A DNA stretch of 64,000 nucleotides from an uncultured Mycoplasmatota bacterium. Its GTDB lineage: Bacteria; Bacillota_I; Bacilli_A; RF39; UBA660. Shown piece after piece: positions 21,124 through 35,261 of this stretch (the first letter of the stretch is position 1; each line of letters opens with the position of its first letter). The stretch lies in contig URFW01000001.1 of assembly GCA_900547225.1 (NCBI GenBank), positions 49,106 through 113,105 on the forward strand. The letters are read 5' to 3'. The position numbers were made by a program, and so were the translations under genes. The notes beneath the pieces were generated by a model. It was not told where the DNA came from. It saw only the letters and a list, made by a program, of their open reading frames with translations, and ran no database searches.

Positions 21124-21876
21124 ATGAAAAAGAAATTAATGATAGTATTTTTATTTTTTGCTTTGTTAATTGTTATTTGTCTTATTTTACTTTATAAAGA
21201 TCAAAGGATTACTGTTTTAGGATATCATGATTTTACAGAAGGTGATTCCGTTAGTAATATGCAGATGAATATAAAAAAATTTGACAAGCAAATGAAATAT
21301 TTAAAAGACCATAATTATAATACAATTACTCTTAAACAAATGGATTGTTTTATAAATAAGACTTGCAAAATACCTAGAAAATCTGTTTTAATTACGATGG
21401 ACGATGGGTATAAATCTAATTATGATTTAGCATTTAAAGTACTTAAGAAATATAATTTTAATGGGGTAGTATTTTATATGGGAGTAAATTATAATGGTGG
21501 AAATGAAAACTATATGGATTTAAATATGATTAAGGAAGCTAAAAGAAAATATCCCAACATAGAATTTGCATCTCATTCTTATGATTTACATCATGAAAAT
21601 GATTATTTACTAAGTTATGAAGAAATAAATAATGATTTTAAAAAGATGAATAATGTAATTGATACTAAATATTTTGCGTATCCTTATGGGCATGTTAGCC
21701 ATAACATAGAAAAGGCTTTAAAAGACAATAATTATAAATTAGCATTTACATTTGGTCCAGGAAAAAATCATAGAAAAGTAAAATTAGGTGATGATAAATA
21801 TCATTTGCCAAGACTATTTATATCAAGTGATATGCCTTTTTGGAAGTTTATATTAAGACTGGTTATACCTTATTAA
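21124..21876 (+). CDS. Polysaccharide deacetylase (NodB/CE4 family), membrane anchored
   Basis: TMDDGY and HSYDLHH motifs, with an N-terminal TM. Confidence 0.8.
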   Translation: MKKKLMIVFLFFALLIVICLILLYKDQRITVLGYHDFTEGDSVSNMQMNIKKFDKQMKYLKDHNYNTITLKQMDCFINKTCKIPRKSVLITMDDGYKSNYDLAFKVLKKYNFNGVVFYMGVNYNGGNENYMDLNMIKEAKRKYPNIEFASHSYDLHHENDYLLSYEEINNDFKKMNNVIDTKYFAYPYGHVSHNIEKALKDNNYKLAFTFGPGKNHRKVKLGDDKYHLPRLFISSDMPFWKFILRLVIPY

Positions 21877-21894
21877 AATATGAAAGGATAAGTT

Positions 21895-22293
21895 ATGAAA
21901 TCAGAGATTATTGTAACCGGAATTTTGAAGTGTGATGATTTATTTTTAATAGTTAGAAGAAGCAAAAACGATGATTTTTATCCAGGATCTTGGGAATTTC
22001 CTGGAGGTCATTTAGAAGATGGTGAGACTTTAAATGAAGCACTTAAAAGAGAACTTGAAGAAGAAATAGGATACACTTTGGATTCTATTCCTATTATTAC
22101 TAATTATTTTGATGAAGTAAAAACTTTTGAAAATAAACTTGTTCATAATTTAGAAATAGATTTTATTATTACTGTGGATAAAACAAAATTAAACATAAAA
22201 CTAAGTAATGAACATTCTGAGTATAAATGGGTTAAAAAAGATTCTAGATATTTAGATAATTTTATAAAAAATAAATTAAAGAATATTTATTGA
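21895..22293 (+). CDS. NUDIX hydrolase
   Basis: Nudix box GGHLEDGETLNEALKRELEEEIG. Confidence 0.85.
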   Translation: MKSEIIVTGILKCDDLFLIVRRSKNDDFYPGSWEFPGGHLEDGETLNEALKRELEEEIGYTLDSIPIITNYFDEVKTFENKLVHNLEIDFIITVDKTKLNIKLSNEHSEYKWVKKDSRYLDNFIKNKLKNIY

Positions 22294-22453
22294 CAAAGAA
22301 ATAAAACTATAATATATTATTAGTGTAAATTGCTAAGAGAAAGGAGTGTGATTAATATGAAGAATTTACAAATTATAAGTAATGCAGAATTAATCATGGC
22401 TCCTATCTATTTTAGTTTATAATAGATAAATTTTTGATGTCCTAGATTTTAAG

Positions 22454-22477
22454 TTCTGCATTATGCAGAATTTTTTT
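22454..22477 (+). terminator. Intrinsic terminator/attenuator 22 nt upstream of the ASCH-deaminase gene
   Basis: TTCTGCA-TTA-TGCAGAA followed by T7. Confidence 0.55.
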
Positions 22478-22499
22478 AATAGAGAAAGGGACAAATAAA

Positions 22500-23240
22500 A
22501 TGATAATAAAATTAAATATTAATGATAGGGCAGCTCTTGCTATGAAAAATGGTACAAAAAAAGTAGAAATAAGAGCGGGTGCTAATTATGATAAATTAAA
22601 TTATGGAGATATAATTGAATTTAGTAGTAATAATTTAGGTAAATTTTATGTTAAAGTAGAAGGTATTAATCATTATAATACTTTAGATGAATTATTTACT
22701 CTTGAAGGAACTAGATATACTGTATCATCCACAAATGATAAGAAAGAAGCTATCTTAAATGTGGAAAAAATAGGAGATTATAAAAACATAATAAAAGAAA
22801 ATGGTGTTTATGCAGTTCATATTAAGTATTTATATTCGGAAAATACCGTATGGGAAGAACTATATGATAAGGCTAAAAACATAAGAGACGATAGAGAAGT
22901 ATCAGGTATGATTAGTGCAGGATGTGTTGGAGCGGCAATACTTACTAAAGGTCATAATATATATACTGGAGTTTGTATTGATACAGCATCATCTTTAGGT
23001 ATGTGTGCTGAAAGAAATGCTATAGCAAATATGATTACAAATGGTGAAAATGAAATAGTAAAATTAGTTTGTATTGATTCAAAAGGAAATATAGGCTTTC
23101 CTTGCGGTGCATGCAGAGAATACTTAATGCAACTTTCTAAAAATAGTAAGAATATTGAAATATTAAAAGATAAAGATAACAATGAAATAATTAAATTAGA
23201 AGAATTAATCCCTAATTGGTGGGGATATGATAGAGTATAA
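22500..23240 (+). CDS. Fusion protein: N-terminal ASCH (PUA-like) domain plus C-terminal cytidine/blasticidin-S-type deaminase
   Basis: ASCH-like N-terminus (KKVEIRAG...GDIIEF). Zn-binding CAERNA and PCGACREY motifs in the C-terminal half. Confidence 0.75.
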   Translation: MIIKLNINDRAALAMKNGTKKVEIRAGANYDKLNYGDIIEFSSNNLGKFYVKVEGINHYNTLDELFTLEGTRYTVSSTNDKKEAILNVEKIGDYKNIIKENGVYAVHIKYLYSENTVWEELYDKAKNIRDDREVSGMISAGCVGAAILTKGHNIYTGVCIDTASSLGMCAERNAIANMITNGENEIVKLVCIDSKGNIGFPCGACREYLMQLSKNSKNIEILKDKDNNEIIKLEELIPNWWGYDRV

Positions 23241-24320
23241 ATGAGAAATATAGAATTAGTTATACCTAAATTAGAAGAATATTCTTATGAAGAAAAATTA
23301 AAAAAAGATCCTAATACAATGAGTTATAATGCTGGGTATGATGTTAAATATTCTGGTTATCATTATGATACTGGTTGTATTAATTTTACTGTGGATAAGT
23401 GGAAGGATGCTTATGATAAAAGAATAAAGGAAAATAGATATTTTGCATACATAAAAGATTTTGATATTAATGAATATGTTGGATATGTTAATTACCAATA
23501 TGATAAAGAACAAAATATTTATGAATGTGGTATTTTAATTGAATATAAATATAGAGGTAAAGGTTATTCTAAAGATGCTTTAAAATTACTTATAAAAGAA
23601 GCTTATAATAATGGCATAGAATACTTATACGATACTTTTGAAAAAGATAGAGAAAATACATTAAAATTATTTTTAGACGTTGGATTTAAAATATATAAAG
23701 AAGAAACTTGGAAGAAGTTTAATAAGGATGTATCAGGAGCTATTGTTAGAATAAATACAAGTAGTATATTGCCTAATATTTCTAAGATAAGAAGTATATA
23801 TGATGTTTTTTCTTTTATGGAAAATAATATTAGATATGGATGGTTAGATATCAATAAAAATATTCATATTGGAAACATGAAGAATTTTAGAAAGTTATAC
23901 AGAACTATGACTATTGATGAGATACTAAGTTATGGTATTGGTACATGTATAGATCAAGTTTATTTGATGCACTATATTTTAAATAATATAGGTATAAAAA
24001 ACAAGATGTTTGCGACTAGAATATATGAACCAGATGATTTTGATGATTTAACAAAAGAAGAACATATGCATTGTTTTATACTTTGCTATGCTAATGATAA
24101 GGTTTATCATATAGAGCATCCTAATTGGTATGAAAAAGGAATTTATGAATATAAAAACGAAGATAAAGCACTAAAAACAATAAATGAATATTATGTAAAA
24201 CTATCAAATGGAATTTCAAGACCAATAACTGAATTTTATGATGTTAAGCCAAATATGTCATTTAAGGAATTTAATTGTTATATAAATAGTTTAAATTGTA
24301 ATCATAATTATGATGTTTGA
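23241..24320 (+). CDS. GNAT acetyltransferase fused to a transglutaminase-like/papain-like Cys-His domain
   Basis: GNAT core (YRGKGYSKDALKLLIKEA). C-terminal GIGTCIDQV ... HMHCFIL ... HIEHPN arrangement. Confidence 0.55.
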   Translation: MRNIELVIPKLEEYSYEEKLKKDPNTMSYNAGYDVKYSGYHYDTGCINFTVDKWKDAYDKRIKENRYFAYIKDFDINEYVGYVNYQYDKEQNIYECGILIEYKYRGKGYSKDALKLLIKEAYNNGIEYLYDTFEKDRENTLKLFLDVGFKIYKEETWKKFNKDVSGAIVRINTSSILPNISKIRSIYDVFSFMENNIRYGWLDINKNIHIGNMKNFRKLYRTMTIDEILSYGIGTCIDQVYLMHYILNNIGIKNKMFATRIYEPDDFDDLTKEEHMHCFILCYANDKVYHIEHPNWYEKGIYEYKNEDKALKTINEYYVKLSNGISRPITEFYDVKPNMSFKEFNCYINSLNCNHNYDV

Positions 24321-24332
24321 GGTGTTAAAGAA

Positions 24333-24815
24333 ATGGAAATAATAGAATACAATGATAAATATTTAGAAGATGTTAAAGATTTACTAGTAGAATTAGAAGA
24401 ATATATACTGTCCATAGATGAAGATGCATTAGACCAGTTACATAAAGAATACAGAGATAAAATGGCTATCTTAGATTTAAAAGAGGTAAATGATAATAGT
24501 GGTAAATGCTATTTAATGATAGATGGTGATAAAGTAATTGGATTAATTATGGGATATGTTAGGGTTTATGATAAATATGATTATTTAGATTACAAATGTC
24601 CAAAATGCGGTAAAATATCAGAATTAATTATTTCTAAGCATGCAAGAAGTAAGGGTGTAGGCCAAAAACTAATTAAAAAAATGGAAGAATATTTTAAACA
24701 AATAAATTGTGAATATATCTTAATAGATGTTTTTGCTTATAATAAAAATGCTATTAAATTTTATAATAGGCAAGGGTATCATACAAGGGAGATTATTAAT
24801 ATTAAGAAGATATAA
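24333..24815 (+). CDS. GNAT family N-acetyltransferase
   Basis: ARSKGVGQKLIKKMEE acetyl-CoA binding motif (Q/RxxGxG/A). Confidence 0.8.
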   Translation: MEIIEYNDKYLEDVKDLLVELEEYILSIDEDALDQLHKEYRDKMAILDLKEVNDNSGKCYLMIDGDKVIGLIMGYVRVYDKYDYLDYKCPKCGKISELIISKHARSKGVGQKLIKKMEEYFKQINCEYILIDVFAYNKNAIKFYNRQGYHTREIINIKKI

Positions 24816-24839
24816 AAAATATGAATGGAGACATAATGA

Positions 24840-25340
24840 ATGAATAGTTATAAATGTGTAATAGCGGATAAAGATTTAATTATAAAAAAATGGGATTGTG
24901 AAATAAAAAAACATAATAATTCAAAATTATGGATACAGTTTAAAAAAGAATCACTAAAAAATTTAGATACAAGAATTGTCTATATGGGATTATTAAATGG
25001 TGAAATAATTGCGGAAGCAACAGCGATAGTTTCTGAATATGATTTTAATATGCAAAATAAAGATGGTTTAATAGGAGATAAAAAAGCATATTTAACAGCA
25101 TTTAGAACGAATAAAGAATATGAAAACAAAGGATACTTTTCTAAACTTTATAAATTTATGGAAAATGATTTAAAAAAAAGAGGTTTTAAATATTTAACTC
25201 TTGGAGTAGAACCTTATGAAATAAGAAATATACAAATATATTTTAAATGGGGCTTTATAAAGTATATAAAGACTGATTATGAATATTATTCATCTGGTGA
25301 GAAAGTAATTGTTAATTATTATGAAAAAACATTGAAGTAA
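24840..25340 (+). CDS. GNAT-like acetyltransferase
   Basis: Size and the YENKGYFSKLYKFMEN motif A region. Confidence 0.6.
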   Translation: MNSYKCVIADKDLIIKKWDCEIKKHNNSKLWIQFKKESLKNLDTRIVYMGLLNGEIIAEATAIVSEYDFNMQNKDGLIGDKKAYLTAFRTNKEYENKGYFSKLYKFMENDLKKRGFKYLTLGVEPYEIRNIQIYFKWGFIKYIKTDYEYYSSGEKVIVNYYEKTLK

Positions 25341-25381
25341 TTATGATATAATTAAAATGAATTTAATAAGAGGTATATACT

Positions 25382-25960
25382 ATGAAAAAAGAAATAGAAA
25401 TAACAGTTAGAGTAAATGTCGGTTATGAAAAACTAGAAGAGGAATTAAAACGAAATAATTTTATAAAAAAAGAAGAATATATAGTAAATGATTCATATTT
25501 AATTAATAGTTCAATAAATATAACAGATATGAAAAGTTTAGATATACTTAAGAAATGTGTTTTAGTAAGAGATATAGTTGGAATTTTAAAACAGTTATTA
25601 TATAAATATAAAAAATATGATAGTAATGGAGATATAATTGAACAAGGGAAAATAAAATGTCCTGTTACTGATATAAATAAAGCGATGGAATTTATGAATG
25701 CTATAGGATATGAAAAATTATTTGATATACATGATAAATGTATAGTTTTTGCAAATGATAAAACCGAGTTAGTTGTTCAACTAGTTAATGATAAATATAT
25801 TTTTATAGAAATGGAGTCTGAACCTCAATATATTAACAGAAAATATGAAAATGTAGAAGAATTAAAAGATGATATATGTAGTTATAATCTATCAATAGAT
25901 AAATCTAATTTCTTTGTAAAAAAGGCAGAATTAATTTTAAATGAAACGTTAAATAGATGA
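25382..25960 (+). CDS. CYTH-domain protein (CyaB/thiamine-triphosphatase-like)
   Basis: N-terminal EIEITVRV (ExExK-like) and later VLVRD, LLYKYKKY and IFIEME strands in CYTH order. Confidence 0.5.
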   Translation: MKKEIEITVRVNVGYEKLEEELKRNNFIKKEEYIVNDSYLINSSINITDMKSLDILKKCVLVRDIVGILKQLLYKYKKYDSNGDIIEQGKIKCPVTDINKAMEFMNAIGYEKLFDIHDKCIVFANDKTELVVQLVNDKYIFIEMESEPQYINRKYENVEELKDDICSYNLSIDKSNFFVKKAELILNETLNR

Positions 25961-25975
25961 TAGGAGATGATGCAT

Positions 25976-26530
25976 ATGAAAAAGATAGTTTATGTAACAG
26001 GAAATTGGTCTAAACTTATGAGTGCTAAAAAAATATTAGAACCGCTTGGTATAGAGGTTGAAAACGTTAAAATGGAAACAACGGAAATTCAGGCGGACTC
26101 AACTGAGGAAATTGCAATACATTCTGCAAAAGAAGCAAGTGATAAGTTAAAATGTGCTGTATTAAAGAATGATACAGGTTTGTATGTTGAAGCATTAAAT
26201 GGCTTTCCAGGACCATATACACATTATGTTGATGAAAAAATAGGAGAGGATGGATTGTTGAAACTTCTTGATGGGGTTCAAAATAGAAATGCATGTTTTA
26301 TTGAAGCATTTGCATATTGTGAGTATGGCAAGGAACCTGTCGTATTTAAATCTGTGACAAATGGTAAAATAGCTAGAGAAAAGTCTGGAACTTATGGTTG
26401 GAGTTGGGATTTTATATTTATACCAGATGGATATGATAAAACTATGGCAAATTATCCTGACGATGAAAGATGTTTTATTTGGAATACTGATGCATATAAT
26501 AAACTTGCTGATTTTTTAAAAGAAAAATAA
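25976..26530 (+). CDS. Non-canonical purine NTP pyrophosphatase (Ham1/RdgB/ITPase family)
   Basis: VTGNWSKL...E..ADS...A..KA, then FPGPYT. The third ATG (25976) has proper spacing from AGGAG. Confidence 0.8.
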   Translation: MKKIVYVTGNWSKLMSAKKILEPLGIEVENVKMETTEIQADSTEEIAIHSAKEASDKLKCAVLKNDTGLYVEALNGFPGPYTHYVDEKIGEDGLLKLLDGVQNRNACFIEAFAYCEYGKEPVVFKSVTNGKIAREKSGTYGWSWDFIFIPDGYDKTMANYPDDERCFIWNTDAYNKLADFLKEK

Positions 26531-26591: not shown

Positions 26592-26788
26592 AATTGTTTA
26601 TATTTCTTTCTAAAGAATAAAAACTTTTATTTCCAAAAATATATTCACCTACAATTTTCTTTTTAAAATCAGTATATTTATTATTAGGCATAAAAACAGA
26701 ACCTTTTTCTTAAGATTCTATTTTATATGTAACTAGTTTTTTTAGTGTACAAAATGGGTTTACTTCTTTTTCTAATGCTTTGGTTTTA

Positions 26789-27286
26789 TCATTTTGTTGA
26801 ATTTAAGAATTCTTTACATTTATGGAAGAATGCAACTTGGTCATTTGTTAGTATCTTGAGTTTTTCCATTTTATTTAGTTCTTCGATTGAAAACCATTTT
26901 ATTTCTGTTAGTTCTTCTTTTTGTATATTTAATGAATTGATATTGATATCCATATGTACGTAATACATTTTATAACACTCATCTCCATCGCATCCACTGT
27001 TAAATTCCATTATTTTTTGATTTGAAATATCTAGACTTAATTCTTCTTTTACTTCTGTGATAATTCCTTCATATGGTGTTTCACCGCTTTTAGGGTGCCC
27101 ACCAGTTACTCCCCAGTTTCCACCCTTTTTTTGCACTCTCTTTTGCATTAAAAATTCTCATTTACTGTTTTCAATTGCAATCATGACAACCATAGGATAG
27201 TATCCATTTGGTATTTTATCACCCTTGTAATAAGTTAAATCGGTTTTATTGCTATTGATGTCATATAAATCTCTTTTTTCTTTCAT
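26789..27286 (-). pseudogene. NUDIX hydrolase interrupted by a single in-frame TGA
   Basis: The frame is continuous over 498 nt: MKEKRDLYD...VVMIAIENSK-TGA-EFLMQKRVQKKGGNWGVTGGHPKSGETPYEGIITEVKEELSL (Nudix box). The stop is at 27158-27160 on the minus strand. The ORF track shows only the downstream 119 aa. Confidence 0.7.
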
Positions 27287-27471
27287 ATTAATCTCTATTC
27301 CTTCCATTTTGTTGAAAATACATATACTGTGAACAAAATCATTTTTTTAAATTGTTCTTCAACTTAATTTTATTATTAATAATTTTATGTGTCAAGTTTG
27401 TTGGAGTTATAAAAAATGTGGTTATTTTATGATTCTTGGTAAAATATATGTTAAAAAACAATTTAAAGTTA

Positions 27472-27569: not shown

Positions 27570-27662
27570 ATGAAAACAAAAAGACCAATAAAAAAGTGTA
27601 CAATTAATAAAATGTTTGGTTCTTGTCATTTCAGTAAAGGTGATGGTTGGCAAAGTAAATAA
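27570..27662 (+). CDS. RiPP precursor peptide, streptide-like (KGDGW motif), 30 aa: MKTKRPIKKCTINKMFGSCHFSKGDGWQSK
   Basis: Not in the ORF track because it is below the length cut-off. SD AAGGAGG (27558-27564), 5-nt spacer, ATG. It lies 45 nt upstream of a rSAM/SPASM gene. The C-terminal nonapeptide SKGDGWQSK resembles streptide AKGDGWKVM. Confidence 0.7.
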   Translation: MKTKRPIKKCTINKMFGSCHFSKGDGWQSK

Positions 27663-27690
27663 AGGATTATGCCTTTATTTACTTATTTTT
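27657..27690 (+). terminator. Weak hairpin overlapping the precursor stop codon (possible partial terminator or processing signal)
   Basis: AAATAAAGG-ATTATG-CCTTTATTT followed by a T-rich tail. Confidence 0.4.
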
Positions 27691-27707: not shown

Positions 27708-29051
27708 ATGAAATACAATAATGAATTTATATTAAGATTTGAATTCTTTGGTGGATTAATGTATTCTAGTTTTGATCAGGGTATATATATAATTGACTAT
27801 ATGGATTCAGTATTTTTGGATTGCATAAAGAATAAATATAAGTATGAAACATCTATCAAGATTGTTGAAAAAGTATTTGATTGTGATCATTATAAACCAA
27901 ATATTAAAGAAATGTTAAATTACGGTTTTTTAACTAAATCAAGTGAAATTAAAGATTATGAAAATGATTATAATTGTTGGAATATAAAAGAATATAAAAA
28001 AATTATATCAAAAGCACAAAAAAGAAAATATTTGAGTTCACCTATAGAAGTTAGTATTTATCCATCTAGTTTCTGCCAATTGAATTGTAAATTTTGTTAC
28101 TTTTCTAATAAAAAAAACAAATATGTGAAATGTAATTCAAGTGAGAGCTGGATTAAATTAATCGATGTTTTAAAAGAAAAAAATGTAATATATTTATCAA
28201 TCTTAGGAGGAGAACCAACTCTTTATTATGATATTGATAAAATTTTAATCCATGCAAATAAAATAAAAATGAAGACTACAATAACAACAAATGGATTACA
28301 TATAAAATCAAGTACTTTTGATATTATATGTAAAAGTAAGTATATAACTCCTACTATTTCTATTCAAAGTTTAACAGAACACAACTATAAATATATGGGT
28401 GTAAGTAGTAATAAAATCGTAAAAACAATAGATAAATTTATAGAAAAAGGTAAAATACCAAGAATTAATTCAGTGATATATAATCAAAGTAAAGAAGAAA
28501 TATATGAATTGATTGATTTTTGTGTTTTGAGAGGCATTACTCAATATTCTTTAAATATATATATGCCTTTAGGAAATTCATTGAGAGACAAAGATGACTT
28601 TTCATATTATAAAGAGCTTGATTGTAACATACAATCTTATTTACTGAAGAAGAAGTATAATAACATTTCTGTGAATATACAAGGATGTTTATTTTATTCA
28701 GCATTTTATGATGAATGCGATAGTCCGGTTAAAAATGAATTTGATAAAATAATATATGGCTGTGAAGCAGGTCAAACGAAGGTTGAAATAATGCCTGATG
28801 GCACATTGTTACCTTGTACAGCTTTTGATATAAATGATTTTAATTATGAAAATGTTTTTGAAAAAAATTTTAATGATATATGGGAAAATTCATATAGTTT
28901 GAATATTTTACGAAATTATAAAATAGAAGATAAAAAATGTGCTAAATGTAAATATAATGATTTTTGTAATGGTGGATGTCCTGCATATAATGTAAGAAAA
29001 AATAAATCTTTAACAAAGAAAGGTGATGACAGGTGCAAAGTGGTTTTATAA
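27708..29051 (+). CDS. Radical SAM enzyme with SPASM domain (StrB-like peptide-modifying maturase)
   Basis: CQLNCKFC (CX3CX2C). Full SPASM pattern: CEAGQTKVEIMPDGTLLPC (CX12GX4C), CAKCKYNDFCNGGC (CX2CX5CX3C) and a final Cys in DDRCKV. An N-terminal region of about 110 aa precedes the SAM motif (RRE-like position). Confidence 0.9.
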   Translation: MKYNNEFILRFEFFGGLMYSSFDQGIYIIDYMDSVFLDCIKNKYKYETSIKIVEKVFDCDHYKPNIKEMLNYGFLTKSSEIKDYENDYNCWNIKEYKKIISKAQKRKYLSSPIEVSIYPSSFCQLNCKFCYFSNKKNKYVKCNSSESWIKLIDVLKEKNVIYLSILGGEPTLYYDIDKILIHANKIKMKTTITTNGLHIKSSTFDIICKSKYITPTISIQSLTEHNYKYMGVSSNKIVKTIDKFIEKGKIPRINSVIYNQSKEEIYELIDFCVLRGITQYSLNIYMPLGNSLRDKDDFSYYKELDCNIQSYLLKKKYNNISVNIQGCLFYSAFYDECDSPVKNEFDKIIYGCEAGQTKVEIMPDGTLLPCTAFDINDFNYENVFEKNFNDIWENSYSLNILRNYKIEDKKCAKCKYNDFCNGGCPAYNVRKNKSLTKKGDDRCKVVL

Positions 29052-30781
29052 ATGAAGAAGATTATAAAAATATGAATAAATATGAAGAACAACTATTAGT
29101 TTTAAAGCAATTTGTAAGAGACAATGAATGGTATAATATGCTCAAATTTGATATTGCACTTAACCCGAAGTTAGCTGAAGAAATAGTTGGAATTATAAAA
29201 AGCATAGACATAAATAATTTTAACTCAGATGATTATAAAAATATTATATTAACTTTGAGAAATAAGTGTATGAAATTAAAAAATATGGCTGATTCTACTA
29301 GTGATACAATATTAAAATGGTATAACTATAGATGGGCCTACGCATATTATGGTTTGATTGAAGTAATAACTGAAGGATCTTTAGTTACTGATAAAATATT
29401 AAGCACATTTAAAGAAAAATATGGGAATGCCTATTTAGATTTTATTAAAAAAATCGATAAACATGTACCATCTAGCTTAACAAATTTTTCGGTTTCAAAT
29501 ACAAATGATATAGATTTAAGTGATGAAAATATAAAAATATATTTACTAATGAAATATTTTCAAGACGATCAACATATTTTCCATGAACAAATACTTATAA
29601 AAGATCATCAAAACGCAAGAAGAAATTTTGAGGCTATTGTAAAAAAAGAATATCCTCATCTGAATAAAGTTAATGGTAAAAATTTACTTATGTTAGTTAT
29701 TCTAGATAATATTCCTATAATAGATATTAATATATTATCAAGATTTATAATTGCTACAGGAAATAAGGATTTATCATATATAATTGGTGGTAAGGGATTA
29801 GGTCTTTCTATATTAAATACTAATGGTTTTAATATTCCTAAAACTTATATAATCCCAGTTACATCACTAAAAGAAGAATTATATAAAGGAAAAATTCAAG
29901 AATTGAAAAATATTAACTATTCTGTAAGAAGTTCAGCAACCGTTGAGGATAATGAAAATAATTCATTTGCAGGAATGTTTACATCAGTATTAGATGTTGA
30001 AAAACCAAATTTATCAAAAGCAGTTGAAGTTGTTAAAAGATCAATTAACAATCCAAGAGTTGTTTCATATGTAAATCATTTCAACACAGATAAACCTTAT
30101 ATGTCTGTGGTAATTCAAAAATATAAAGAACCAACACTGTCTGGTGTGTGGATAGGTAATGATATTAATAGTGGATATTTAGAATGGGTAAATGGCAACG
30201 GAGAAAAATTGGTGAGTGGACATGTCAAACCAATATCTGAAAAATGGCCAAATAACAATGAAGAAGATAATTTAATGGTTAAAAATGAATGTGTGGGAAA
30301 TTACTGTTTAGAATTGCAAAGAAAATTAAATGCCAGTGCAGATTTAGAATGGTGTATATTGGATGGTGAATTAGTTTGGTTACAATATAGACCTGTAACA
30401 AAAAAAATAGAATATGAAGAAAACAAGAAAAGTATTGATGGTGAATCATTTGTTGGTGTTGCGGCATCTTCTGGTGAAATAATTGGAAGACCATTTTATT
30501 TGGATGATCCAAATGATGTTGATAAATTTATAGAGGGAAGTATTTTGCTAACAGAATATACAGATCCGGATTGGGTACCTGTCATTCTTAAAAGTTCGGG
30601 AATAATAACGGCTGAAGGTGGATTTTTATCACACACAGCTATCATTTCAAGAGAATTAGGAATTCCTTGTGTAACTGGATTAGGATATGATGTTATAAAC
30701 AAATTAAAAGAAGAAGATCAAATTGAAGTTAATGGAAGTAGTGGATGTGTAAAAAAATATATATTAAAAAGAAAAATATAG
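29033..30781 (+). CDS. PEP-utilising-family enzyme: unknown helical N-domain plus PPDK_N-type ATP-grasp plus swivel phospho-His domain
   Basis: GGKGLGLSILNTNGFNIP and YSVRSSATVEDNENNSFAGMF (PPDK_N/PEP synthase/rifampin phosphotransferase-type). C-terminal TAEGGFLSHTAIISRELGIPCV (mobile His domain). GTG start overlaps the rSAM gene by 19 nt; ATG 29072 is an alternative. Confidence 0.8.
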   Translation: MQSGFINEEDYKNMNKYEEQLLVLKQFVRDNEWYNMLKFDIALNPKLAEEIVGIIKSIDINNFNSDDYKNIILTLRNKCMKLKNMADSTSDTILKWYNYRWAYAYYGLIEVITEGSLVTDKILSTFKEKYGNAYLDFIKKIDKHVPSSLTNFSVSNTNDIDLSDENIKIYLLMKYFQDDQHIFHEQILIKDHQNARRNFEAIVKKEYPHLNKVNGKNLLMLVILDNIPIIDINILSRFIIATGNKDLSYIIGGKGLGLSILNTNGFNIPKTYIIPVTSLKEELYKGKIQELKNINYSVRSSATVEDNENNSFAGMFTSVLDVEKPNLSKAVEVVKRSINNPRVVSYVNHFNTDKPYMSVVIQKYKEPTLSGVWIGNDINSGYLEWVNGNGEKLVSGHVKPISEKWPNNNEEDNLMVKNECVGNYCLELQRKLNASADLEWCILDGELVWLQYRPVTKKIEYEENKKSIDGESFVGVAASSGEIIGRPFYLDDPNDVDKFIEGSILLTEYTDPDWVPVILKSSGIITAEGGFLSHTAIISRELGIPCVTGLGYDVINKLKEEDQIEVNGSSGCVKKYILKRKI

Positions 30782-30797: not shown

Positions 30798-31532
30798 ATG
30801 ATTTTATTTTTAACAAGTAATGTTGGTGGAGTAAAAAAAGAAAATGGCAAAAAATATCCTGTTAGATTTTTCGAAAAAAACAAATTTTTAAATAATTTAA
30901 AAAAGAACTTAACAGAAACGAAAAAATTTTTGTTAATTGCGAGCAATCCAGATGATTATGAAAAGAATGATTTATTTTTGAAAATGGATATAAAAGCATT
31001 GGAATTAAGCGGTTTACATTTTGATGAATATGTTGTATTAGACGGAAGAAATTCAAATAAAGTTAAATCAGTCTTAAATGGTGTAAATTTGATATTTTTA
31101 TGTGGAGGTAATACATTAACACAAAATAATTTTTTAAATCGTATTAATCTAAAAAAATATTTAAAAAAAATTGATTCTGTTGTTGTCGGGATAAGTGCAG
31201 GATCAATTAATTCTGCAAAAAATGTGTTCAATAGTCCAGAAAGTGACACTGATCTGAATAATTCACCTTATTTACAAGGCTTAGAATTAACAAATATAAA
31301 TATTGAACCTCATTTTAGCGTCAATAATTTAAATGATGATTCAAAAAAAATTCAAATGAATGCTATATTATCTGAGTCTAATAATAGACTATTATATGGT
31401 TTGACGGATGGATCATACATTATTAAAAATGGCTCAAAATGTACTTTATATGGAGAAAGTTACAAAATACAAAATGGAAATATTATAAAAATTTGTGAAG
31501 ATGATAATTTTATTGATATTGATGATATTTAA
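30798..31532 (+). CDS. Peptidase family S51 (dipeptidase E/cyanophycinase-like)
   Basis: LCGGNTLTQNNFL, nucleophile motif VVGISAGSINS and IEPHF His motif. Confidence 0.75.
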   Translation: MILFLTSNVGGVKKENGKKYPVRFFEKNKFLNNLKKNLTETKKFLLIASNPDDYEKNDLFLKMDIKALELSGLHFDEYVVLDGRNSNKVKSVLNGVNLIFLCGGNTLTQNNFLNRINLKKYLKKIDSVVVGISAGSINSAKNVFNSPESDTDLNNSPYLQGLELTNINIEPHFSVNNLNDDSKKIQMNAILSESNNRLLYGLTDGSYIIKNGSKCTLYGESYKIQNGNIIKICEDDNFIDIDDI

Positions 31533-31649: not shown

Positions 31650-31861
31650 GTTAATTAAAAAGCGATTCATTCGAAGTAATTATTTTAATTTATTTATAGA
31701 AAGCTTATGGTTGATGAAAATAAGTATAGTTAAAGTGATGAATTACAAATGATGATTTTAAACGGATAATCTCGTTAAAGATTAGAGGTAATAAACATTT
31801 ATTACGAATTAAGGTGGTACCACGGTTACTAATCGTCCTTTATTTAAGGATGATTTTTTTG
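31650..31861 (+). promoter_or_regulatory. T-box leader (tyrosine specifier) with intrinsic terminator
   Basis: T-box sequence AATTAAGGTGGTACCACGG (31808-31826). TAC followed by A at 31744-31747 as candidate specifier. Terminator AATCGTCCTT-TATTT-AAGGATGATT plus T-run (31831-31861). Upstream of tyrS. Confidence 0.85.
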
Positions 31862-31881: not shown

Positions 31882-31989
31882 ATGGATGTTGATTATTACT
31901 ATTATTATTACTTTGAAAATAGTTTTCTAATTAACTTAAATATAAATCATACTGGAGGAATAAAAAAACATGAAAAAAGAATTATTTGA
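31882..31989 (+). CDS. Upstream ORF (35 codons) with six consecutive Tyr codons: MDVDYYYYYYFENSFLINLNINHTGGIKKHEKRII
   Basis: SD AAAGGAGGTGA (31866-31876), 5-nt spacer, ATG. Tyr codons TAT TAC TAT TAT TAT TAC at 31894-31911. Reads through the tyrS SD and start and stops at 31987-31989. Confidence 0.4.
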   Translation: MDVDYYYYYYFENSFLINLNINHTGGIKKHEKRII

Positions 31990-33199
31990 TGTCCTAAAAG
32001 AAAGGGGATATGTAAAAGATTTAACACACGAAAAAGAAATCAGAAATTTAATAAATGGAAAACCTATGACTTTTTATTTGGGTATTGATCCTACCGAGGA
32101 TAGTCTTCATATAGGACATTTTTTTGCACTTACTTTATTTAGGTGGTTACAAGATTTTGGCCATCGTGGAATAATTCTTATTGGTGGTGCGACCGCTTTA
32201 ATTGGAGATCCAACAGGCAAAAGCGATATGAGAAAAATGTTATCTCAGGAAGAAGTTAAACATAATAAAATAGAAGTCAAGCAGCTTGTTAAAAGGTTCG
32301 TTAAAACTAGTGGCGATAATCCTGCTATTATAGTAGATAACGCTGATTGGATATGTGATAAAACGTATGTTAACTTTATGAGAGATGTAGGAGTACATTT
32401 TAACGTTAATATGATGCTTAGTTCAGAGTGTTACAAAAAAAGATTAGAAAGTGGAGGCTTAACTTTTTTGGAAATGGGATATATGCTAATGCAGGCCTTT
32501 GATTTTGTTCATTTAAACAAAGAGTTTGGATGTAAATTACAAATAGGTGGATCAGATCAGTGGGGAAATATTTTAGCTGGTTCTAATTTATCTAGAAAAA
32601 TAGGATTTAGTGAAGGAAAGAAAATAGAACCATTATTTGGAATGGTATGTCCTCTTTTGTTAAAAGCAGATGGAGAAAAAATGGGTAAAACAGCATCAGG
32701 TACTTTATGGGTATCAAGAAATAAGACAACACCATTTGAATTCTTTCAATCATGGATTAATTCATATGATGAAGATGTTGAAAGATCACTTGCATTTTTT
32801 ACTAGAATTGATATGAACGAAATAAAAAATTTATGCAAAAAGGATATAAGGCAAGCTAAGGAGCTATTAGCGTTTGAAGTCACTAAATTAGTACATGGGA
32901 AAGAAGAAGCAGAAAAAGCAAGAGACACTGCAAGATCTTTATTTAGTGGAAATATTTTAATAAATGATATACCTACAAAGGAAATAAATATAGATAATGA
33001 TATATTATTAATTGATTTGTTAGTACTATGTTCTTTGGCTAAGTCTAAAACAGAAGCTAAAAGGTTGATTTTGCAAAATGGAATTAAAATAGATGGAGAA
33101 AAGGAAAAAAATATAGATAAAATTATAAAAATATCAAATAGAGAAATAGTAATTCAAAAAGGAAAGAAATGCTTTATTAAAATAAGATTTGTTAAGTAA
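31970..33199 (+). CDS. tyrS: Tyrosine--tRNA ligase
   Basis: HIGH motif (SLHIGHF), KMSKS-type KMGKT and a C-terminal S4-like domain. Preceded by the T-box. Confidence 0.95.
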   Translation: MKKELFDVLKERGYVKDLTHEKEIRNLINGKPMTFYLGIDPTEDSLHIGHFFALTLFRWLQDFGHRGIILIGGATALIGDPTGKSDMRKMLSQEEVKHNKIEVKQLVKRFVKTSGDNPAIIVDNADWICDKTYVNFMRDVGVHFNVNMMLSSECYKKRLESGGLTFLEMGYMLMQAFDFVHLNKEFGCKLQIGGSDQWGNILAGSNLSRKIGFSEGKKIEPLFGMVCPLLLKADGEKMGKTASGTLWVSRNKTTPFEFFQSWINSYDEDVERSLAFFTRIDMNEIKNLCKKDIRQAKELLAFEVTKLVHGKEEAEKARDTARSLFSGNILINDIPTKEINIDNDILLIDLLVLCSLAKSKTEAKRLILQNGIKIDGEKEKNIDKIIKISNREIVIQKGKKCFIKIRFVK

Positions 33200-33390: not shown

Positions 33391-33873
33391 ATGATAAGAA
33401 AAGCGATTAAAGAAGATGCAAAAGATATTGTTAGAATTAACGTTAATTCTTGGAAGGAAACGTATAGAAAAATATTTCCTACTGATTTTTTAGATAAACT
33501 TGATAGTAAAAATATTTCGGCAATAGAAAGATGTAAGGAAAAAATAGAAGAGTATGTTGTTTATGAACAAGAAGGTAAAATAGTTGCAATGGCGCGATAT
33601 GGAATAAACAAGAAAGGCTATGATAAAGCATATGCTGAAATTTATGCATTATATGTTGATTTAGAATATAAAAATCAAGGTATTGGAACAAAAATGATAG
33701 ATTATATATTTAAAATATTAAAAAATGATTTTAAATATGTATTGATTAGTACTTTAAAAGAAAATAGTGCTAATGAGTTTTATAAAAAAATATGTGGAAA
33801 ACTTATTGGAGAATGTAATTTTTCACTAATGGGAAATAATTATTTAGAGAATTTATATCAATATGTATTATAG
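33391..33873 (+). CDS. GNAT family N-acetyltransferase
   Basis: YKNQGIGTKMIDYIFK motif A. Confidence 0.8.
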   Translation: MIRKAIKEDAKDIVRINVNSWKETYRKIFPTDFLDKLDSKNISAIERCKEKIEEYVVYEQEGKIVAMARYGINKKGYDKAYAEIYALYVDLEYKNQGIGTKMIDYIFKILKNDFKYVLISTLKENSANEFYKKICGKLIGECNFSLMGNNYLENLYQYVL

Positions 33874-33885
33874 GAGGAAGAACTT

Positions 33886-34434
33886 ATGAAATATTTTAAG
33901 AAATTTGTAGGACATAGATTATATTTATCACCAATGAATATTTTAGATGCTGAAAAATATACCATGTGGATGAATGATAGAAGTGTAACGGATCCAACTG
34001 GTAGTACTGTTAAAATTACTTCTATAGAAGGAGAAAAAGAATGGATTACTAATGCGTCCAAAACTGGTGATGCAAACTTTGCAATAGTAGATATTAAAAC
34101 TGATGAACTTTTAGGTAATTGTTCATTGTTAAATATTGATAGAATAAATAGATGTTGTACAGTAGGAATTTTTATTGGAGATGAAGAAAATAGGAATAAA
34201 GGCTATGGAGCGGAAGCGTTAAGATTACTTTTGAATTATGCTTTTAATATGGAAAATATGCATAATGTTAATCTAGAAGTATTTTCATTTAACGAAAGAG
34301 CAATTAAATGTTACTCGAAAGTGGGATTTAAAGAGTATGGAAGAAGACATGAAGTATACTTTTTAGATGGTAAATATCATGATAAGATTGAAATGGAAAT
34401 ATTAGAAAATGATTTTAGAAAAGAAAGTAATTAA
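33886..34434 (+). CDS. GNAT acetyltransferase, RimJ/RimL-like
   Basis: NRNKGYGAEALRLLLNYAF, NERAIKCYSKVGF. Confidence 0.85.
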   Translation: MKYFKKFVGHRLYLSPMNILDAEKYTMWMNDRSVTDPTGSTVKITSIEGEKEWITNASKTGDANFAIVDIKTDELLGNCSLLNIDRINRCCTVGIFIGDEENRNKGYGAEALRLLLNYAFNMENMHNVNLEVFSFNERAIKCYSKVGFKEYGRRHEVYFLDGKYHDKIEMEILENDFRKESN

Positions 34435-34556
34435 ATATATAAGTATAAGCTTATTTTGATGCTACTAATAGTTTTTATAATTAGTAGCATTTTTATATAT
34501 TGAAAAAATATAATATGTAATTTAAAATGATAATAGATATGGAAGGTGATTACGTT

Positions 34557-35261
34557 ATGGAAAAGATAGAGAATGAATACTTTGTAATAAATTATTCTAA
34601 ATCCTTGAGTGAAATAGTTAAAAAAATGATTAGCATTTCTACTAAAAAAGTGCCAGAAATATTTGCATTTTTCCACATTAAAAGTTATAGAAAAGTAACT
34701 GTTAATTTATTTGATAGTATAGATGAATTTAAATATTTTGTATCTGATTTAAGAGGCATTAGTAAAGATCAATTACCAGAATATTGTAAGGGTACTTTTG
34801 ATTGTGGAATGATTAATCATTATATAGAGCCTAACATTATGAAAGGAAGTTTTCTATATAATACTAGAATTTGTTCTATTTTCCATGAATTAGTTCACGT
34901 TATTTATTATGAAATTATTTTAAATAAAAATTATAAAGATAGAGTTATCTGGTTAGATGAGGGACTTGCAATGAATCTATCCGGAGAATTTCAAAATGTT
35001 TTGCTTGATGATATATTAGATAAGGTATTATCATTTAAGGAGATGCCAAACATGAATGAGATTTCTCATGGTTTGGCATTTGTAAATGATAAGTATGATG
35101 GATATATAGCAAGTTTTATTTCAGTAAATTATTTGCTTGAAACGCTAAATAACAATGAATTATTAAACATTATAAAAAACAAGGATATGATATATGAAAT
35201 AGGTGAAGATGTACTTAATAATGCCATTAGATATTATAATGATAAAAAGATAAGGAGATGA
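34557..35261 (+). CDS. Putative zinc metallopeptidase (HExxH, Peptidase_MA_2-like)
   Basis: FHELVHVIY plus downstream WLDEGLAMN. ATG 34557 follows GGAAGGTGA. Confidence 0.55.
   Translation: MEKIENEYFVINYSKSLSEIVKKMISISTKKVPEIFAFFHIKSYRKVTVNLFDSIDEFKYFVSDLRGISKDQLPEYCKGTFDCGMINHYIEPNIMKGSFLYNTRICSIFHELVHVIYYEIILNKNYKDRVIWLDEGLAMNLSGEFQNVLLDDILDKVLSFKEMPNMNEISHGLAFVNDKYDGYIASFISVNYLLETLNNNELLNIIKNKDMIYEIGEDVLNNAIRYYNDKKIRR

What the first reader, a model, noticed from the sequence alone, without database searches (positions are those of the whole stretch)
29033..30781. PEP-utilising (ATP-grasp plus swivel-His) enzyme translationally coupled to the rSAM gene: a candidate peptide phosphotransferase
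The protein has three parts. There is an N-terminal helical region of about 230 aa with no motif I recognise. Then comes a PPDK_N-type ATP-grasp (GGKGLGLS..., VRSSATVEDNENNSFAGMF). Last is a PEP-utilisers mobile domain with the phospho-His motif GGFLSHTAIISRELGIP. No PEP/pyruvate-binding TIM barrel is present. The same ATP-grasp plus swivel-His logic is used by rifampin phosphotransferase to phosphorylate a small-molecule hydroxyl. The start overlaps the rSAM stop by 19 nt, which argues for co-function. My inference is ATP-dependent phosphorylation, or another phosphoryl or nucleotidyl transfer, onto the peptide, with the novel N-domain as the substrate-binding module.
Basis: inference. Interest (0 to 1): 0.7.

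Follow-up and report, generated by a model that had tools for sequence, protein, structure and literature searches.

The report
Dikinase-type enzyme locked to peptide-crosslinking genes
A 582-residue ATP-driven phosphate-transfer enzyme with a previously unseen front domain sits, overlapping by 19 bases, behind a streptide-type peptide-crosslinking gene; this pairing recurs in very different bacteria, so it is probably a new kind of peptide-modifying (or peptide-neutralising) enzyme, although no experiment has yet shown what it phosphorylates.

Summary
ORF 29033-30781 (+) encodes 582 aa. It has a PPDK_N ATP-grasp, a PEP-utilizers swivel domain with His534 in GGFLSH, no TIM barrel, and a 245-aa all-helical N-domain. 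It overlaps the upstream rSAM gene by 19 nt.

- **Upstream genes.** The rSAM is a full-length homologue of SuiB/StrB, the Lys-Trp crosslinker. A 30-aa gene before it ends in FSKGDGWQSK and carries the streptide K-GDG-W motif.
- **Recurrence.** The trio of KGDGW peptide, StrB-like rSAM and this enzyme recurs in gut "Tenericutes" MAGs, Saccharibacteria and another Patescibacteria MAG. More distant family members sit beside other rSAM/SPASM, YcaO and PqqD genes with Cys-rich peptides.
- **Linkage.** An rSAM is linked in 13 of 22 family lineages, against 2 of 132 control PEPS-like loci.
- **N-domain.** It has no Pfam, PDB-sequence or PDB-fold match. It occurs only in this architecture, in 112 clusters among 1.84 billion representatives.
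- **Literature.** No paper in the held library links such an enzyme to RiPPs.

Best reading: ATP phosphorylates His534, which passes the phosphate to the peptide product.

Caveats: 9 of 22 lineages are orphans with intact catalytic residues. This keeps a self-protection role and a peptide-independent role open. The acceptor atom is unknown.

The parts
27570..27662 (+). Precursor peptide gene, 30 aa: MKTKRPIKKCTINKMFGSCHFSKGDGWQSK. It carries the streptide-type K-GDG-W motif near its C-terminus, and an AAGGAGG ribosome-binding site lies upstream.
   Evidence: The core F[SA]KGDGW is conserved in small ORFs at the same position in L005, L006, L008, L085, L088 and L094.
27653..27684 (+). Terminator-like hairpin (13-bp stem) overlapping the precursor stop codon. 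It is a probable attenuator between the precursor and enzyme genes.
   Evidence: Folding gives dG -14.3 kcal/mol, z -3.0. A hairpin at the same position is seen in L005 (z -6.2) and less clearly in L006 (z -1.9; 13 of 200 shuffles fold as well).
27708..29051 (+). Radical SAM/SPASM maturase, 447 aa, StrB/SuiB-like. It is the presumed Lys-Trp crosslinker.
   Evidence: Pfam finds Radical_SAM and SPASM. The best NCBIfam hit is TIGR04080, the KxxxW cyclic peptide maturase, at 284 bits, below the cut-off of 500. It aligns end to end with SuiB 5v1q, E 8e-72.
29033..29767 (+). PEP-utilising enzyme, N-terminal all-alpha domain (residues 1-245). It is the presumed acceptor-binding and acceptor-site domain. 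Invariant residues are E114, L135, D142, S147, Y170, K174 and D178; E110, S116, Y134 and Q177 are nearly invariant.
   Evidence: The AF2 model has pLDDT 92.5 and ten helices. There is no Pfam hit, no PDB sequence hit and no PDB fold hit (best E 1.3, TM 0.25 or lower). This domain diverges fastest: 29% mean pairwise identity against 48% for the other domains.
29768..30427 (+). PEP-utilising enzyme, PPDK_N-type ATP-grasp (residues about 246-465). The motifs GGK254, R299-SSA, D437-x-E439 and Q451-x-R453-P are all invariant in the family.
30428..30781 (+). PEP-utilising enzyme, linker plus swivel phospho-His domain (residues 466-582, then the stop codon). The catalytic His534 in GGFLSH lies at 30632-30634.
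30798..31532 (+). Peptidase_S51 gene, 244 aa, 16 nt downstream. It is the last gene before the tyrS T-box leader and is possibly part of the operon, for example as a processing peptidase. Membership is uncertain.
   Evidence: Pfam gives 55.9 bits. No terminator-like site was found between it and the enzyme. The T-box at 31653-31843 starts the next transcription unit. This gene is not conserved next to homologues. The S51 gene in L090 is not detectably orthologous.
26786..27307 (-). NUDIX gene with an in-frame TGA, a probable pseudogene, divergently placed upstream of the cassette. Its orthologue is adjacent in L005/L096 and is fused to the enzyme's C-terminus in L001. A functional link is doubtful.

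Best explanation
The gene encodes a dikinase-type phosphotransferase (ATP-grasp plus swivel His) that works in the same pathway as the StrB-like radical SAM enzyme on the KGDGW peptide.

**Proposed sequence of events**
1. The 30-aa precursor is crosslinked Lys-to-Trp by the rSAM. This is inferred from homology to SuiB/StrB and from the identical K-GDG-W motif.
2. The ATP-grasp uses ATP to phosphorylate His534 on the mobile domain. This is inferred from fully conserved catalytic residues and from the established PPDK/PEPS/RPH mechanism, in which the beta-phosphate goes to His and the gamma-phosphate goes to water or Pi.
3. The swivel domain carries the phosphate to an acceptor bound in the family-specific all-alpha N-domain. 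I take that acceptor to be a group on the ribosomal peptide. This step is inference.

**Possible outcomes of the transfer**
- A stable phospho-peptide.
- An activated acyl- or imidoyl-phosphate that is then displaced, following PigC or succinyl-CoA-synthetase logic. Candidate acceptors are the Asp of GDG, or Asn in the type-2 cores, or the C-terminal carboxylate.

I commit to a maturation (tailoring) role as the single most likely reading. The probability that the enzyme acts on the peptide at all, as tailoring or self-protection, is about 0.6 to 0.65.
For: - **Domains and catalytic residues.** They are intact and invariant across 32 diverse members: GGK254, R299, D437/E439, Q451/R453 and H534.
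- **Fold.** Foldseek matches PPDK (E 7e-15) and RPH (E 5e-14).
- **Translational coupling.** A 19-nt overlap with the rSAM is conserved in the window, L005, L006, L085 and L094. Overlaps or gaps of 8 nt or less occur in L088, L008 and L090; in L010 the overlap is 17 nt.
- **The cassette crosses phyla.** The trio of F[SA]KGDGW precursor, StrB-like rSAM and this enzyme occurs in 'Tenericutes' UMGS855 and UMGS841, a Saccharibacteria MAG (L008) and a Patescibacteria MAG (L088).
- **Co-divergence.** Enzyme and rSAM identities to the window fall together: 69/66, 53/53, 42/31, 39/31 and 37/31 %.
- **Other peptide-maturation contexts.** Distant members sit inside other RiPP-type operons.
  - L090 and L010: two or three rSAM/SPASM genes, the enzyme, then a ...AGNGNCSDCC peptide; L090 also carries an annotated YcaO gene (no domain search was run on L010's downstream ORF).
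  - L092 and L176: rSAM/SPASM, YcaO and a ...GGNYC.D peptide.
  - L009: PqqD, rSAM/SPASM and a B12-rSAM.
- **Statistics.** An rSAM lies within 2.5 kb in 13 of 22 family lineages against 2 of 132 control PEPS-like loci, Fisher p 2e-11.
- **N-domain behaviour.** It is confined to this architecture (112 clusters). It evolves faster than the catalytic domains (29% vs 48%), as expected for a substrate-specific module. It keeps about ten invariant or nearly invariant polar residues, as expected for a shared acceptor site.
- **Hairpin.** A hairpin follows the precursor gene, as in many bacteriocin and RiPP operons.
Against: - No biochemical data exist for any member.
- Nine of 22 lineages (L003, L007, L087, L011, L012, L099, L177, L178, L179) have no rSAM or recognisable peptide within 5-8 kb. 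They still keep all catalytic and N-domain invariants. These orphans are nested inside the StrB-linked clade.
- In L001 only a stop-interrupted 3' remnant of the StrB-like gene survives, while the enzyme is intact. A dedicated tailoring enzyme would normally be lost together with its substrate.
- No acceptor residue is strictly shared by all associated peptides.
Confidence: 0.4

Rival explanations
1. Self-protection (immunity) enzyme. Like rifampin phosphotransferase, it would inactivate the mature peptide, its own or a neighbour's, by ATP-dependent phosphorylation inside the cell. It would travel with the biosynthetic genes but would also be useful alone.
For: - The closest functional analogue with the same catalytic logic is an antibiotic-inactivating enzyme (PMC4844700).
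- The orphan pattern fits the way immunity genes outlive bacteriocin genes. Orphans are intact, nested within linked clades, and persist after StrB decay in L001.
Against: - Streptide-type peptides have no known antibacterial activity. This rests on my reading of PMC9389541, where the function is not established.
- A cytoplasmic ATP-dependent enzyme protects only against peptides that enter the cell.
- Translational coupling directly behind the rSAM, or directly before the precursor in type-2 operons, is more typical of core biosynthetic partners.
Confidence: 0.22
2. Peptide-independent enzyme. It would phosphorylate a small metabolite or xenobiotic bound by the N-domain. Its linkage to rSAM genes would reflect an indirect connection, such as a shared cofactor, handling of rSAM by-products, or co-regulation. 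It could also reflect inheritance of a gene pair by horizontal transfer.
For: - About 41% of lineages are orphans with conserved active sites.
- All characterised TIM-barrel-less relatives with an extra domain act on small molecules: rifampin, prodiginine precursors and hydroxyphenylethanones (PMC4844700, PMC12167813, PMC13534948).
- The window's neighbourhood is full of small detoxifying or house-cleaning genes, including GNATs, NUDIX, a deaminase and Ham1.
Against: - Linkage recurs with at least three non-orthologous rSAM/SPASM types and different peptide classes, always inside the operon. It is 40-fold enriched over controls.
- The N-domain matches no known small-molecule-binding fold.
Confidence: 0.25
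3. Regulatory or protein-directed kinase. Like M. tuberculosis VadK, a PPDK derivative without the TIM barrel, it would autophosphorylate on His and act on a protein partner. Here the partner could be the rSAM enzyme itself.
For: - VadK shows that truncated PPDK derivatives can autophosphorylate and bind enzymes (PMC13400623).
- Conserved translational coupling suggests stoichiometric production with the rSAM.
- Separately, in PTS Enzyme I a helical subdomain docks the protein acceptor HPr next to a homologous swivel His. This rests on established knowledge.
Against: - The partner rSAMs are not orthologous across the family, and orphans lack any rSAM.
- There is no sequence relation of the N-domain to the EI HPr-binding domain.
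- The score against the VadK-type model PRK05878 is only 71.8 bits against a cut-off of 456.
Confidence: 0.08

Closest known systems
Rifampin phosphotransferase (RPH; e.g. RPH-Lm, PDB 5hv1/5fbs; PMC4844700)
   Same: - It has three domains: an ATP-grasp, a swivel phospho-His domain and a dedicated acceptor-binding domain, with no PEP/pyruvate TIM barrel.
- The Foldseek match is E 5e-14. HMMER against RPH chains gives E 2e-25.
   Different: - The acceptor domain is N-terminal here, not central.
- The acceptor domain is only about 245 aa and has no detectable fold or sequence similarity to the RIF-binding domain.
- The NCBIfam RPH model scores 112 bits against a cut-off of 999.
- The genomic context is a peptide-maturation operon, not a stand-alone resistance gene.
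PEP synthase / pyruvate phosphate dikinase
   Same: The ATP-grasp and mobile His domain are homologous, with all nucleotide, Mg and His motifs conserved. The best structural match is PPDK 1kbl.
   Different: - It lacks the C-terminal PEP/pyruvate TIM barrel.
- It has an extra N-terminal domain.
- It scores 157.7 bits against a cut-off of 598 for PEP synthase.
Prodiginine condensing enzymes PigC/RedH/HapC
   Same: They are PPDK-like ATP-grasp plus phospho-His enzymes recruited to secondary metabolism. Phosphorylation activates a substrate for a later bond-forming step (PMC13534948). This offers a mechanistic model for activation rather than decoration.
   Different: - The domain order and substrate domain are different.
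- Scores are 111-115 bits against cut-offs of 1300-1350.
- Their substrates are small pyrroles, not peptides.
Streptide (str/sui/aga) RaS-RiPP clusters of streptococci
   Same: - The precursor carries the K-GDG-W motif.
- The rSAM/SPASM enzyme is homologous over its full length to SuiB, E 8e-72 (PMC9389541).
   Different: - No StrC peptidase/transporter gene lies next to the cassette, and none was seen among the genes scanned from 21.1 to 35.3 kb. No shp/rgg genes were recognised there either, but I did not search for them specifically.
- The third gene is this dikinase-type enzyme instead.
- The hosts are uncultured gut 'Tenericutes' and Patescibacteria.
- The rSAM scores 284 bits, below the TIGR04080 cut-off of 500.
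VadK (Rv1127c) of M. tuberculosis
   Same: It is a PPDK derivative without the TIM barrel that autophosphorylates on the swivel His (PMC13400623).
   Different: - VadK has no counterpart of the N-domain.
- It is only distantly related: PRK05878 scores 71.8 bits against a cut-off of 456.
- Its context is metabolic regulation.

Membership tests
PPDK/PEPS/RPH superfamily (ATP-grasp + swivel phospho-His phosphotransferases) | PPDK_N-type ATP-grasp nucleotide-binding domain | tested here: met
   Pfam PF01326 scores 91.3 bits against a cut-off of 27. Foldseek matches PPDK and RPH at E 1e-14 to 1e-13.
PPDK/PEPS/RPH superfamily (ATP-grasp + swivel phospho-His phosphotransferases) | Conserved nucleotide/Mg residues: GGK Lys, RSS Arg, D-x-E and Q-x-R | tested here: met
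   K254, R299, D437, E439, Q451 and R453 are invariant in 32 family members. They align to the same motifs in PEP synthase chains.
PPDK/PEPS/RPH superfamily (ATP-grasp + swivel phospho-His phosphotransferases) | PEP-utilizers mobile domain with a catalytic His in GG-x-x-[STC]-H | tested here: met
   PF00391 scores 76.6 bits against a cut-off of 23.1. GGFLSH534 aligns to GGRTSH of PEP synthase and is invariant.
PPDK/PEPS/RPH superfamily (ATP-grasp + swivel phospho-His phosphotransferases) | ATP-dependent autophosphorylation on the His | not testable with these tools
   This needs purified protein and labelled ATP.
PEP synthase / PPDK proper | C-terminal PEP/pyruvate-binding TIM barrel (PEP-utilizers_C) | tested here: not met
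   There is no PF02896 hit. The protein ends at residue 582, just after the swivel domain.
PEP synthase / PPDK proper | Score above the NCBIfam equivalog cut-off | tested here: not met
   NF005057 scores 157.7 against 598, and TIGR01418 scores 142.7 against 739.75.
Rifampin phosphotransferase | Central rifampin-binding domain between the ATP-grasp and the His domain | tested here: not met
   The extra domain is N-terminal. The N-domain model finds no PDB match at all, although RPH entries are in the library (best E 1.3).
Rifampin phosphotransferase | Score above the NCBIfam cut-off (NF041857) | tested here: not met
   It scores 112.3 bits against a cut-off of 999.
Streptide-type (KxxxW) RaS-RiPP cluster | Precursor peptide with Lys and Trp in a K-GDG-W motif | tested here: met
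   The window peptide is ...CHFSKGDGWQSK. The same motif occurs in six related loci. The motif is as described in PMC9389541.
Streptide-type (KxxxW) RaS-RiPP cluster | StrB/SuiB-type rSAM with a SPASM domain | tested here: inconclusive
   The alignment to SuiB 5v1q is full-length at E 8e-72, and TIGR04080 is the best family. The score of 284 bits is below the curated cut-off of 500. The protein is homologous, but not within the curated equivalog.
Streptide-type (KxxxW) RaS-RiPP cluster | StrC peptidase/transporter in the operon | tested here: not met
   The genes after the rSAM are the dikinase-type enzyme and an S51 peptidase. No transporter was seen among the genes scanned from 21.1 to 35.3 kb.
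Streptide-type (KxxxW) RaS-RiPP cluster | Lys C-beta to Trp C7 crosslink in the product | not testable with these tools
   This needs MS and NMR of the product.
RiPP biosynthetic operon (generic) | Small precursor gene next to maturase genes, conserved across lineages | tested here: met
   A hairpin follows the precursor gene.

The most novel reading that the evidence does not exclude
This family would be the first dikinase-type (ATP-grasp to phospho-His to acceptor) enzyme class in ribosomal peptide maturation. A novel all-alpha domain would present an rSAM-crosslinked peptide to the swivel His. The peptide would then be phosphorylated, or activated through an acyl/imidoyl phosphate for a further ring closure or amidation. 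The result would be a modified streptide-like product in gut 'Tenericutes'-type Bacilli and in Patescibacteria, which are groups with tiny genomes and almost no known natural products.
Probability: 0.4. Interest if true: 0.8.

Novelty: new variant of a known kind. Interest (0 to 1): 0.66.

Why it matters
**If the enzyme acts on the peptide**
- It adds a new catalytic logic, phospho-His relay from ATP, to the RiPP tailoring repertoire. The known ATP-using routes are YcaO, ATP-grasp ligases and LanL/APH-type kinases.
- It defines a new protein domain for binding peptide substrates.

**Shown already by the sequence data**
- Streptide-type Lys-Trp peptides are not confined to quorum-sensing streptococci. 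They occur, with a different accessory enzyme, in uncultured gut Bacilli and in Saccharibacteria and other Patescibacteria.

**Testability**
- The cassette has three small genes and could be tested directly by heterologous expression.

**If it turns out to be an immunity enzyme**
- It would be a new peptide-inactivating resistance mechanism related to rifampin phosphotransferase.

Tried and rejected
- **NUDIX fusion as a Rosetta-stone link (rejected).** Fused forms (P0004, P0007, P0009, P0011) all belong to one narrow lineage at about 68-69% identity. The L001 locus shows a rearrangement: the NUDIX domain that lies upstream in its sister locus L005 now follows the enzyme, and the StrB-like gene is reduced to a remnant.
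- **Ham1 and S51 as conserved partners (not supported).** Ham1 recurs only in L092. The S51 gene in L090 is not detectably orthologous to the window's. The window region is generally rich in GNAT, NUDIX and deaminase genes.
- **Alternative genetic code (rejected).** The in-frame TGA in the NUDIX gene aligns with Gly, which raised the question. TGA ends 10 of 64 long ORFs, and long ORFs are intact under table 11.
- **Anti-phage defence component (no support).** There was no PADLOC hit. The N-domain has no homologue in 50,697 phage or 72,556 plasmid records.
- **N-domain as an RRE/PqqD, as the EI HPr-binding domain or as the RPH rifampin domain (no support).** Pfam at E up to 10, a PDB profile search and Foldseek all found nothing.
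- **Metagenome scan with the N-domain alignment (failed).** The alignment had no conserved stretch to search with. The full-length alignment was used instead.
- **Literature (nothing found).** Six full-text searches found no paper connecting PPDK_N/PEP-utilizers enzymes with RiPPs, streptide or SPASM clusters. Haft & Basu 2011 (PMC3133131) is not held.


Full report
**1. Observation**

The ORF at 29033..30781 (+) is real. It has a GTG start and encodes 582 aa. An AGGTGA site lies about 7 nt upstream of the start.

The ORF overlaps the stop of the upstream ORF 27708..29051 by 19 nt. The N-terminus aligns with homologues from residue 1. The 19-nt overlap is reproduced in L005, L006, L085 and L094.

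The quoted motifs are all present:
- GGKGLGL at residues 252-258.
- VRSSATVEDNENNSFAGMF at residues 298-316.
- GGFLSH534TAIISRELGIP at residues 529-545.

Pfam gives PPDK_N (91 bits) and PEP-utilizers (77 bits). It gives no PEP-utilizers_C TIM barrel.

The window is a low-GC genome (24-30% GC) that uses the standard bacterial code. It carries a class B RNase P RNA. The nearest genome records are 'uncultured Tenericutes' gut MAGs UMGS855 and UMGS841.

**2. What surrounds it**

A 30-aa ORF lies 46 nt upstream of the rSAM gene, behind an AAGGAGG site. It encodes MKTKRPIKKCTINKMFGSCHFSKGDGWQSK. A 13-bp hairpin overlaps its stop codon (dG -14.3, z -3.0).

The rSAM/SPASM protein has TIGR04080 (KxxxW cyclic-peptide maturase) as its best family. 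It scores 284 bits, below the cut-off of 500. It aligns end to end with SuiB at E 8e-72.

According to PMC9389541, StrB, SuiB and AgaB install a Lys-Cbeta to Trp-C7 crosslink in precursors with a K-GDG-W motif. Streptococcal clusters consist of StrA, StrB and a peptidase/transporter, StrC.

The window cluster is therefore streptide-like, but its third gene is the PEP-utilising enzyme. A Peptidase_S51 gene follows 16 nt later. After that comes the T-box leader of tyrS at 31653-31843, which marks the next transcription unit.

**3. The enzyme itself**

*Models and fold.* AlphaFold2 with a 32-sequence alignment gives a confident model (pLDDT 89.6). Foldseek places it with PPDK (1kbl, E 7e-15) and rifampin phosphotransferase (5hv3, E 5e-14). 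It also matches HpeI, the ATP-grasp subunit of a two-component small-molecule kinase.

*Catalytic residues.* All catalytic positions are invariant across the family:
- K254 in GGK.
- R299 in RSSA.
- D437 and E439.
- Q451 and R453.
- H534.

*N-domain.* Residues 1-245 form ten helices, modelled at pLDDT 92.5. Several searches found nothing:
- No Pfam match at E up to 10 except a chance DUF hit.
- No PDB sequence match.
- No PDB fold match (best E 1.3, TM 0.25 or lower).

The N-domain is therefore not the RPH rifampin-binding domain, not an RRE/PqqD domain and not the HPr-binding domain of Enzyme I.

A profile of the N-domain was run against 1.84 billion representative proteins. It finds only 112 clusters, and the domain is always at the N-terminus of proteins of about 545-640 aa, or of fragments.

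The N-domain diverges faster than the catalytic domains (29% vs 48% mean pairwise identity). It nevertheless keeps about ten invariant or nearly invariant polar residues: E110, E114, S116, Y134, D142, S147, Y170, K174, Q177 and D178. This pattern is expected for a specificity module built around a common acceptor site.

**4. Genomic association**

This is the key result.

*Type 1 cassettes.* The trio of F[SA]KGDGW precursor, StrB-like rSAM and this enzyme is found in the following loci:

| Locus | Source | Enzyme identity to window |
|---|---|---|
| window | – | 100% |
| L005/L096 | UMGS855 | 69% |
| L006/L097 and L085 | UMGS841 (L006) and related metagenome contigs | 53-55% |
| L094 | metagenome contig; an M16-type peptidase gene follows | 42% |
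| L088 | Patescibacteria MAG | 39% |
| L008 | Saccharibacteria MAG | 37% |

Enzyme and rSAM identities to the window fall together: 69/66, 53/53, 42/31, 39/31 and 37/31 %.

*Type 2 operons.* More distant members lie in different peptide-maturation operons:
- L090 and L010: two or three rSAM or rSAM/SPASM genes, the enzyme, then a ...NVNKTLSMSMAGNGNCSDCC peptide. L090 also carries annotated YcaO and Peptidase_S51 genes; no domain search was run on L010's downstream genes.
- L092 and L176: rSAM/SPASM genes, YcaO and a ...GGNYC[QG]D peptide that overlaps the 3' end of the enzyme gene.
- L009: the enzyme, PqqD, an rSAM/SPASM and a B12-rSAM.
- L101: a small Cys-Cys ORF (a possible precursor), an rSAM, an ABC-F ATPase and the enzyme.

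*Statistics.* Counting near-identical loci once, 13 of 22 lineages have an rSAM within 2.5 kb. Among other PEPS-like loci fetched by the same scans, 2 of 132 do. Fisher's exact test gives p 2e-11.

**5. The complication**

Nine lineages (L003, L007, L087, L011, L012, L099, L177, L178, L179) show no rSAM or recognisable precursor within 5-8 kb.

Two points make these orphans informative:
- They are nested inside the StrB-linked clade. L003, for example, is 66% identical to the window enzyme, closer than the linked L006.
- They keep all invariant residues. P0008, P0024, P0025, P0048, P0065 and P0080 are all in alignment A1.

In L001 the enzyme is intact and fused to a NUDIX domain. Of the StrB-like gene only a stop-interrupted 3' remnant survives upstream: NYKIKDVKCVKCKYSNF*NGGCPVYN.... 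A different Cys-rich peptide (...TGNGNC) and another rSAM follow downstream.

The enzyme has therefore repeatedly outlived the loss of its StrB-type partner.

**6. Mechanism**

*Shown by sequence, structure and context.* The enzyme is a catalytically intact ATP-grasp plus swivel-His phosphotransferase with a private third domain. It is embedded in rSAM-dependent peptide-maturation operons.

*Established for the superfamily.* ATP phosphorylates the swivel His with its beta-phosphate. The His domain then delivers the phosphate to an acceptor bound in the third domain. The sources are the PPDK/PEPS/RPH literature and PMC4844700.

*Inferred.* The acceptor is the ribosomal peptide, after or independently of the Lys-Trp crosslink.

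The associated cores share no single residue. All lie at the extreme C-terminus of the precursor and are Gly-rich with Asp or Asn: GDG, GNGN, GGNY. In the KGDGW peptides, position -4 is always Cys or Ser and position -3 is basic. Candidate acceptors are:
- An Asx side chain.
- The C-terminal carboxylate.
- The Ser/Cys at position -4.

Carboxylate phosphorylation by a phospho-His has precedent in succinyl-CoA synthetase and ATP-citrate lyase, whose ATP-grasp domains also appear among the fold matches. PigC-type enzymes show that such phosphorylation can serve to activate a substrate rather than decorate it (PMC13534948).

*Probabilities.*

| Reading | Probability |
|---|---|
| Maturation (tailoring) role | about 0.40 |
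| Self-protection, RPH-like inactivation; explains the orphans well | about 0.22 |
| Peptide-independent substrate | about 0.25 |
| Protein-directed or regulatory role, VadK-like (PMC13400623) | about 0.08 |

**7. Comparison and novelty**

The enzyme belongs to the PPDK/PEPS/RPH superfamily. It fails the defining tests of every characterised family within it:
- It has no TIM barrel.
- It has no rifampin-type domain.
- All curated NCBIfam cut-offs are missed by wide margins.

It works most like RPH or PigC. It differs in the position and fold of the acceptor domain, and its context is ribosomal peptides.

Database names for family members are only generic, such as 'PEP-utilizing enzyme' and 'pyruvate, water dikinase'. 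Six full-text searches found no paper linking such enzymes to RiPPs or streptide.

I rate it a new variant of a known kind. The catalytic machinery is known, while the domain, the family and the biological context are new.

**8. Verdict**

Co-function with the rSAM/peptide system is strongly supported by comparative genomics. The peptide as acceptor and the nature of the modification remain inference. The orphan pattern is a real counter-signal. Interest is 0.66.

Noticed in passing
window 26786-27307 (-): A NUDIX gene carries an in-frame TGA (IENSK*EFLMQ) where orthologues have Gly (IENSKGEFLFQ). This looks like a GGA-to-TGA nonsense mutation and hence a pseudogene. TGA is an ordinary stop in this window.
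   Followed up: partly
L001 5880-5990 and 6001-8250: In a sister lineage, only a stop-interrupted 3' remnant of the StrB-like rSAM gene survives upstream of the enzyme. The enzyme has also acquired the NUDIX domain as a C-terminal fusion (749 aa). This suggests a duplication and deletion rearrangement of the cassette.
   Followed up: partly
L090 839-9788; L010 3565-9591; L092 2465-8638; L176 5001-10965: A second class of operons contains the same enzyme family. They carry two or three rSAM or rSAM/SPASM genes and short peptides ending in AGNGNCSDCC or GGNYC[QG]D; L090, L092 and L176 also carry a YcaO gene. The N-x-x-C spacing recalls NxxC-type Asn-Cys thioether peptides. These operons appear uncharacterised.
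   Followed up: partly
L008 17-145; L088 3440-3601: Streptide-type KGDGW precursors and StrB-like rSAM genes occur in a Saccharibacteria MAG and another Patescibacteria MAG. The peptides are ...EASRFAKGDGWSPNQ and ...EASKFAKGDGWSN. These groups are not known for RaS-RiPPs.
   Followed up: partly
window 31653-31843 (+): A T-box leader (89.7 bits, just under the Rfam gathering score of 93; E 2.6e-20) lies upstream of the tyrosyl-tRNA synthetase-like gene at 31970-33199. A terminator-like hairpin sits at 31831-31855.
   Followed up: yes
window 13120-13467 (+): A bacterial RNase P RNA of class B (290 bits) is present. This is consistent with a low-GC Bacillota or 'Tenericutes' host.
   Followed up: no
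window 21124-26530 and 33391-35261: The cassette lies in a dense run of small modifying or house-cleaning genes. They include a polysaccharide deacetylase, an intact NUDIX gene, a deaminase-domain protein, five GNAT acetyltransferases, a Ham1 ITPase and an MA-type peptidase.
   Followed up: partly
L083 4416-8705: In a Micrarchaeia MAG, a short ORF containing only a PPDK_N-like ATP-grasp lies directly after two rSAM genes. It is one of only two control loci with rSAM linkage and may be an independent or split version of the association.
   Followed up: no
L006 3487-4257; L097 7763-8533: In the UMGS841 lineage a Cof-type HAD phosphatase gene (Hydrolase_3) is inserted directly downstream of the enzyme. 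It is absent from the close relative L085. It could remove a phosphate installed by the enzyme, or it could be coincidental.
   Followed up: no
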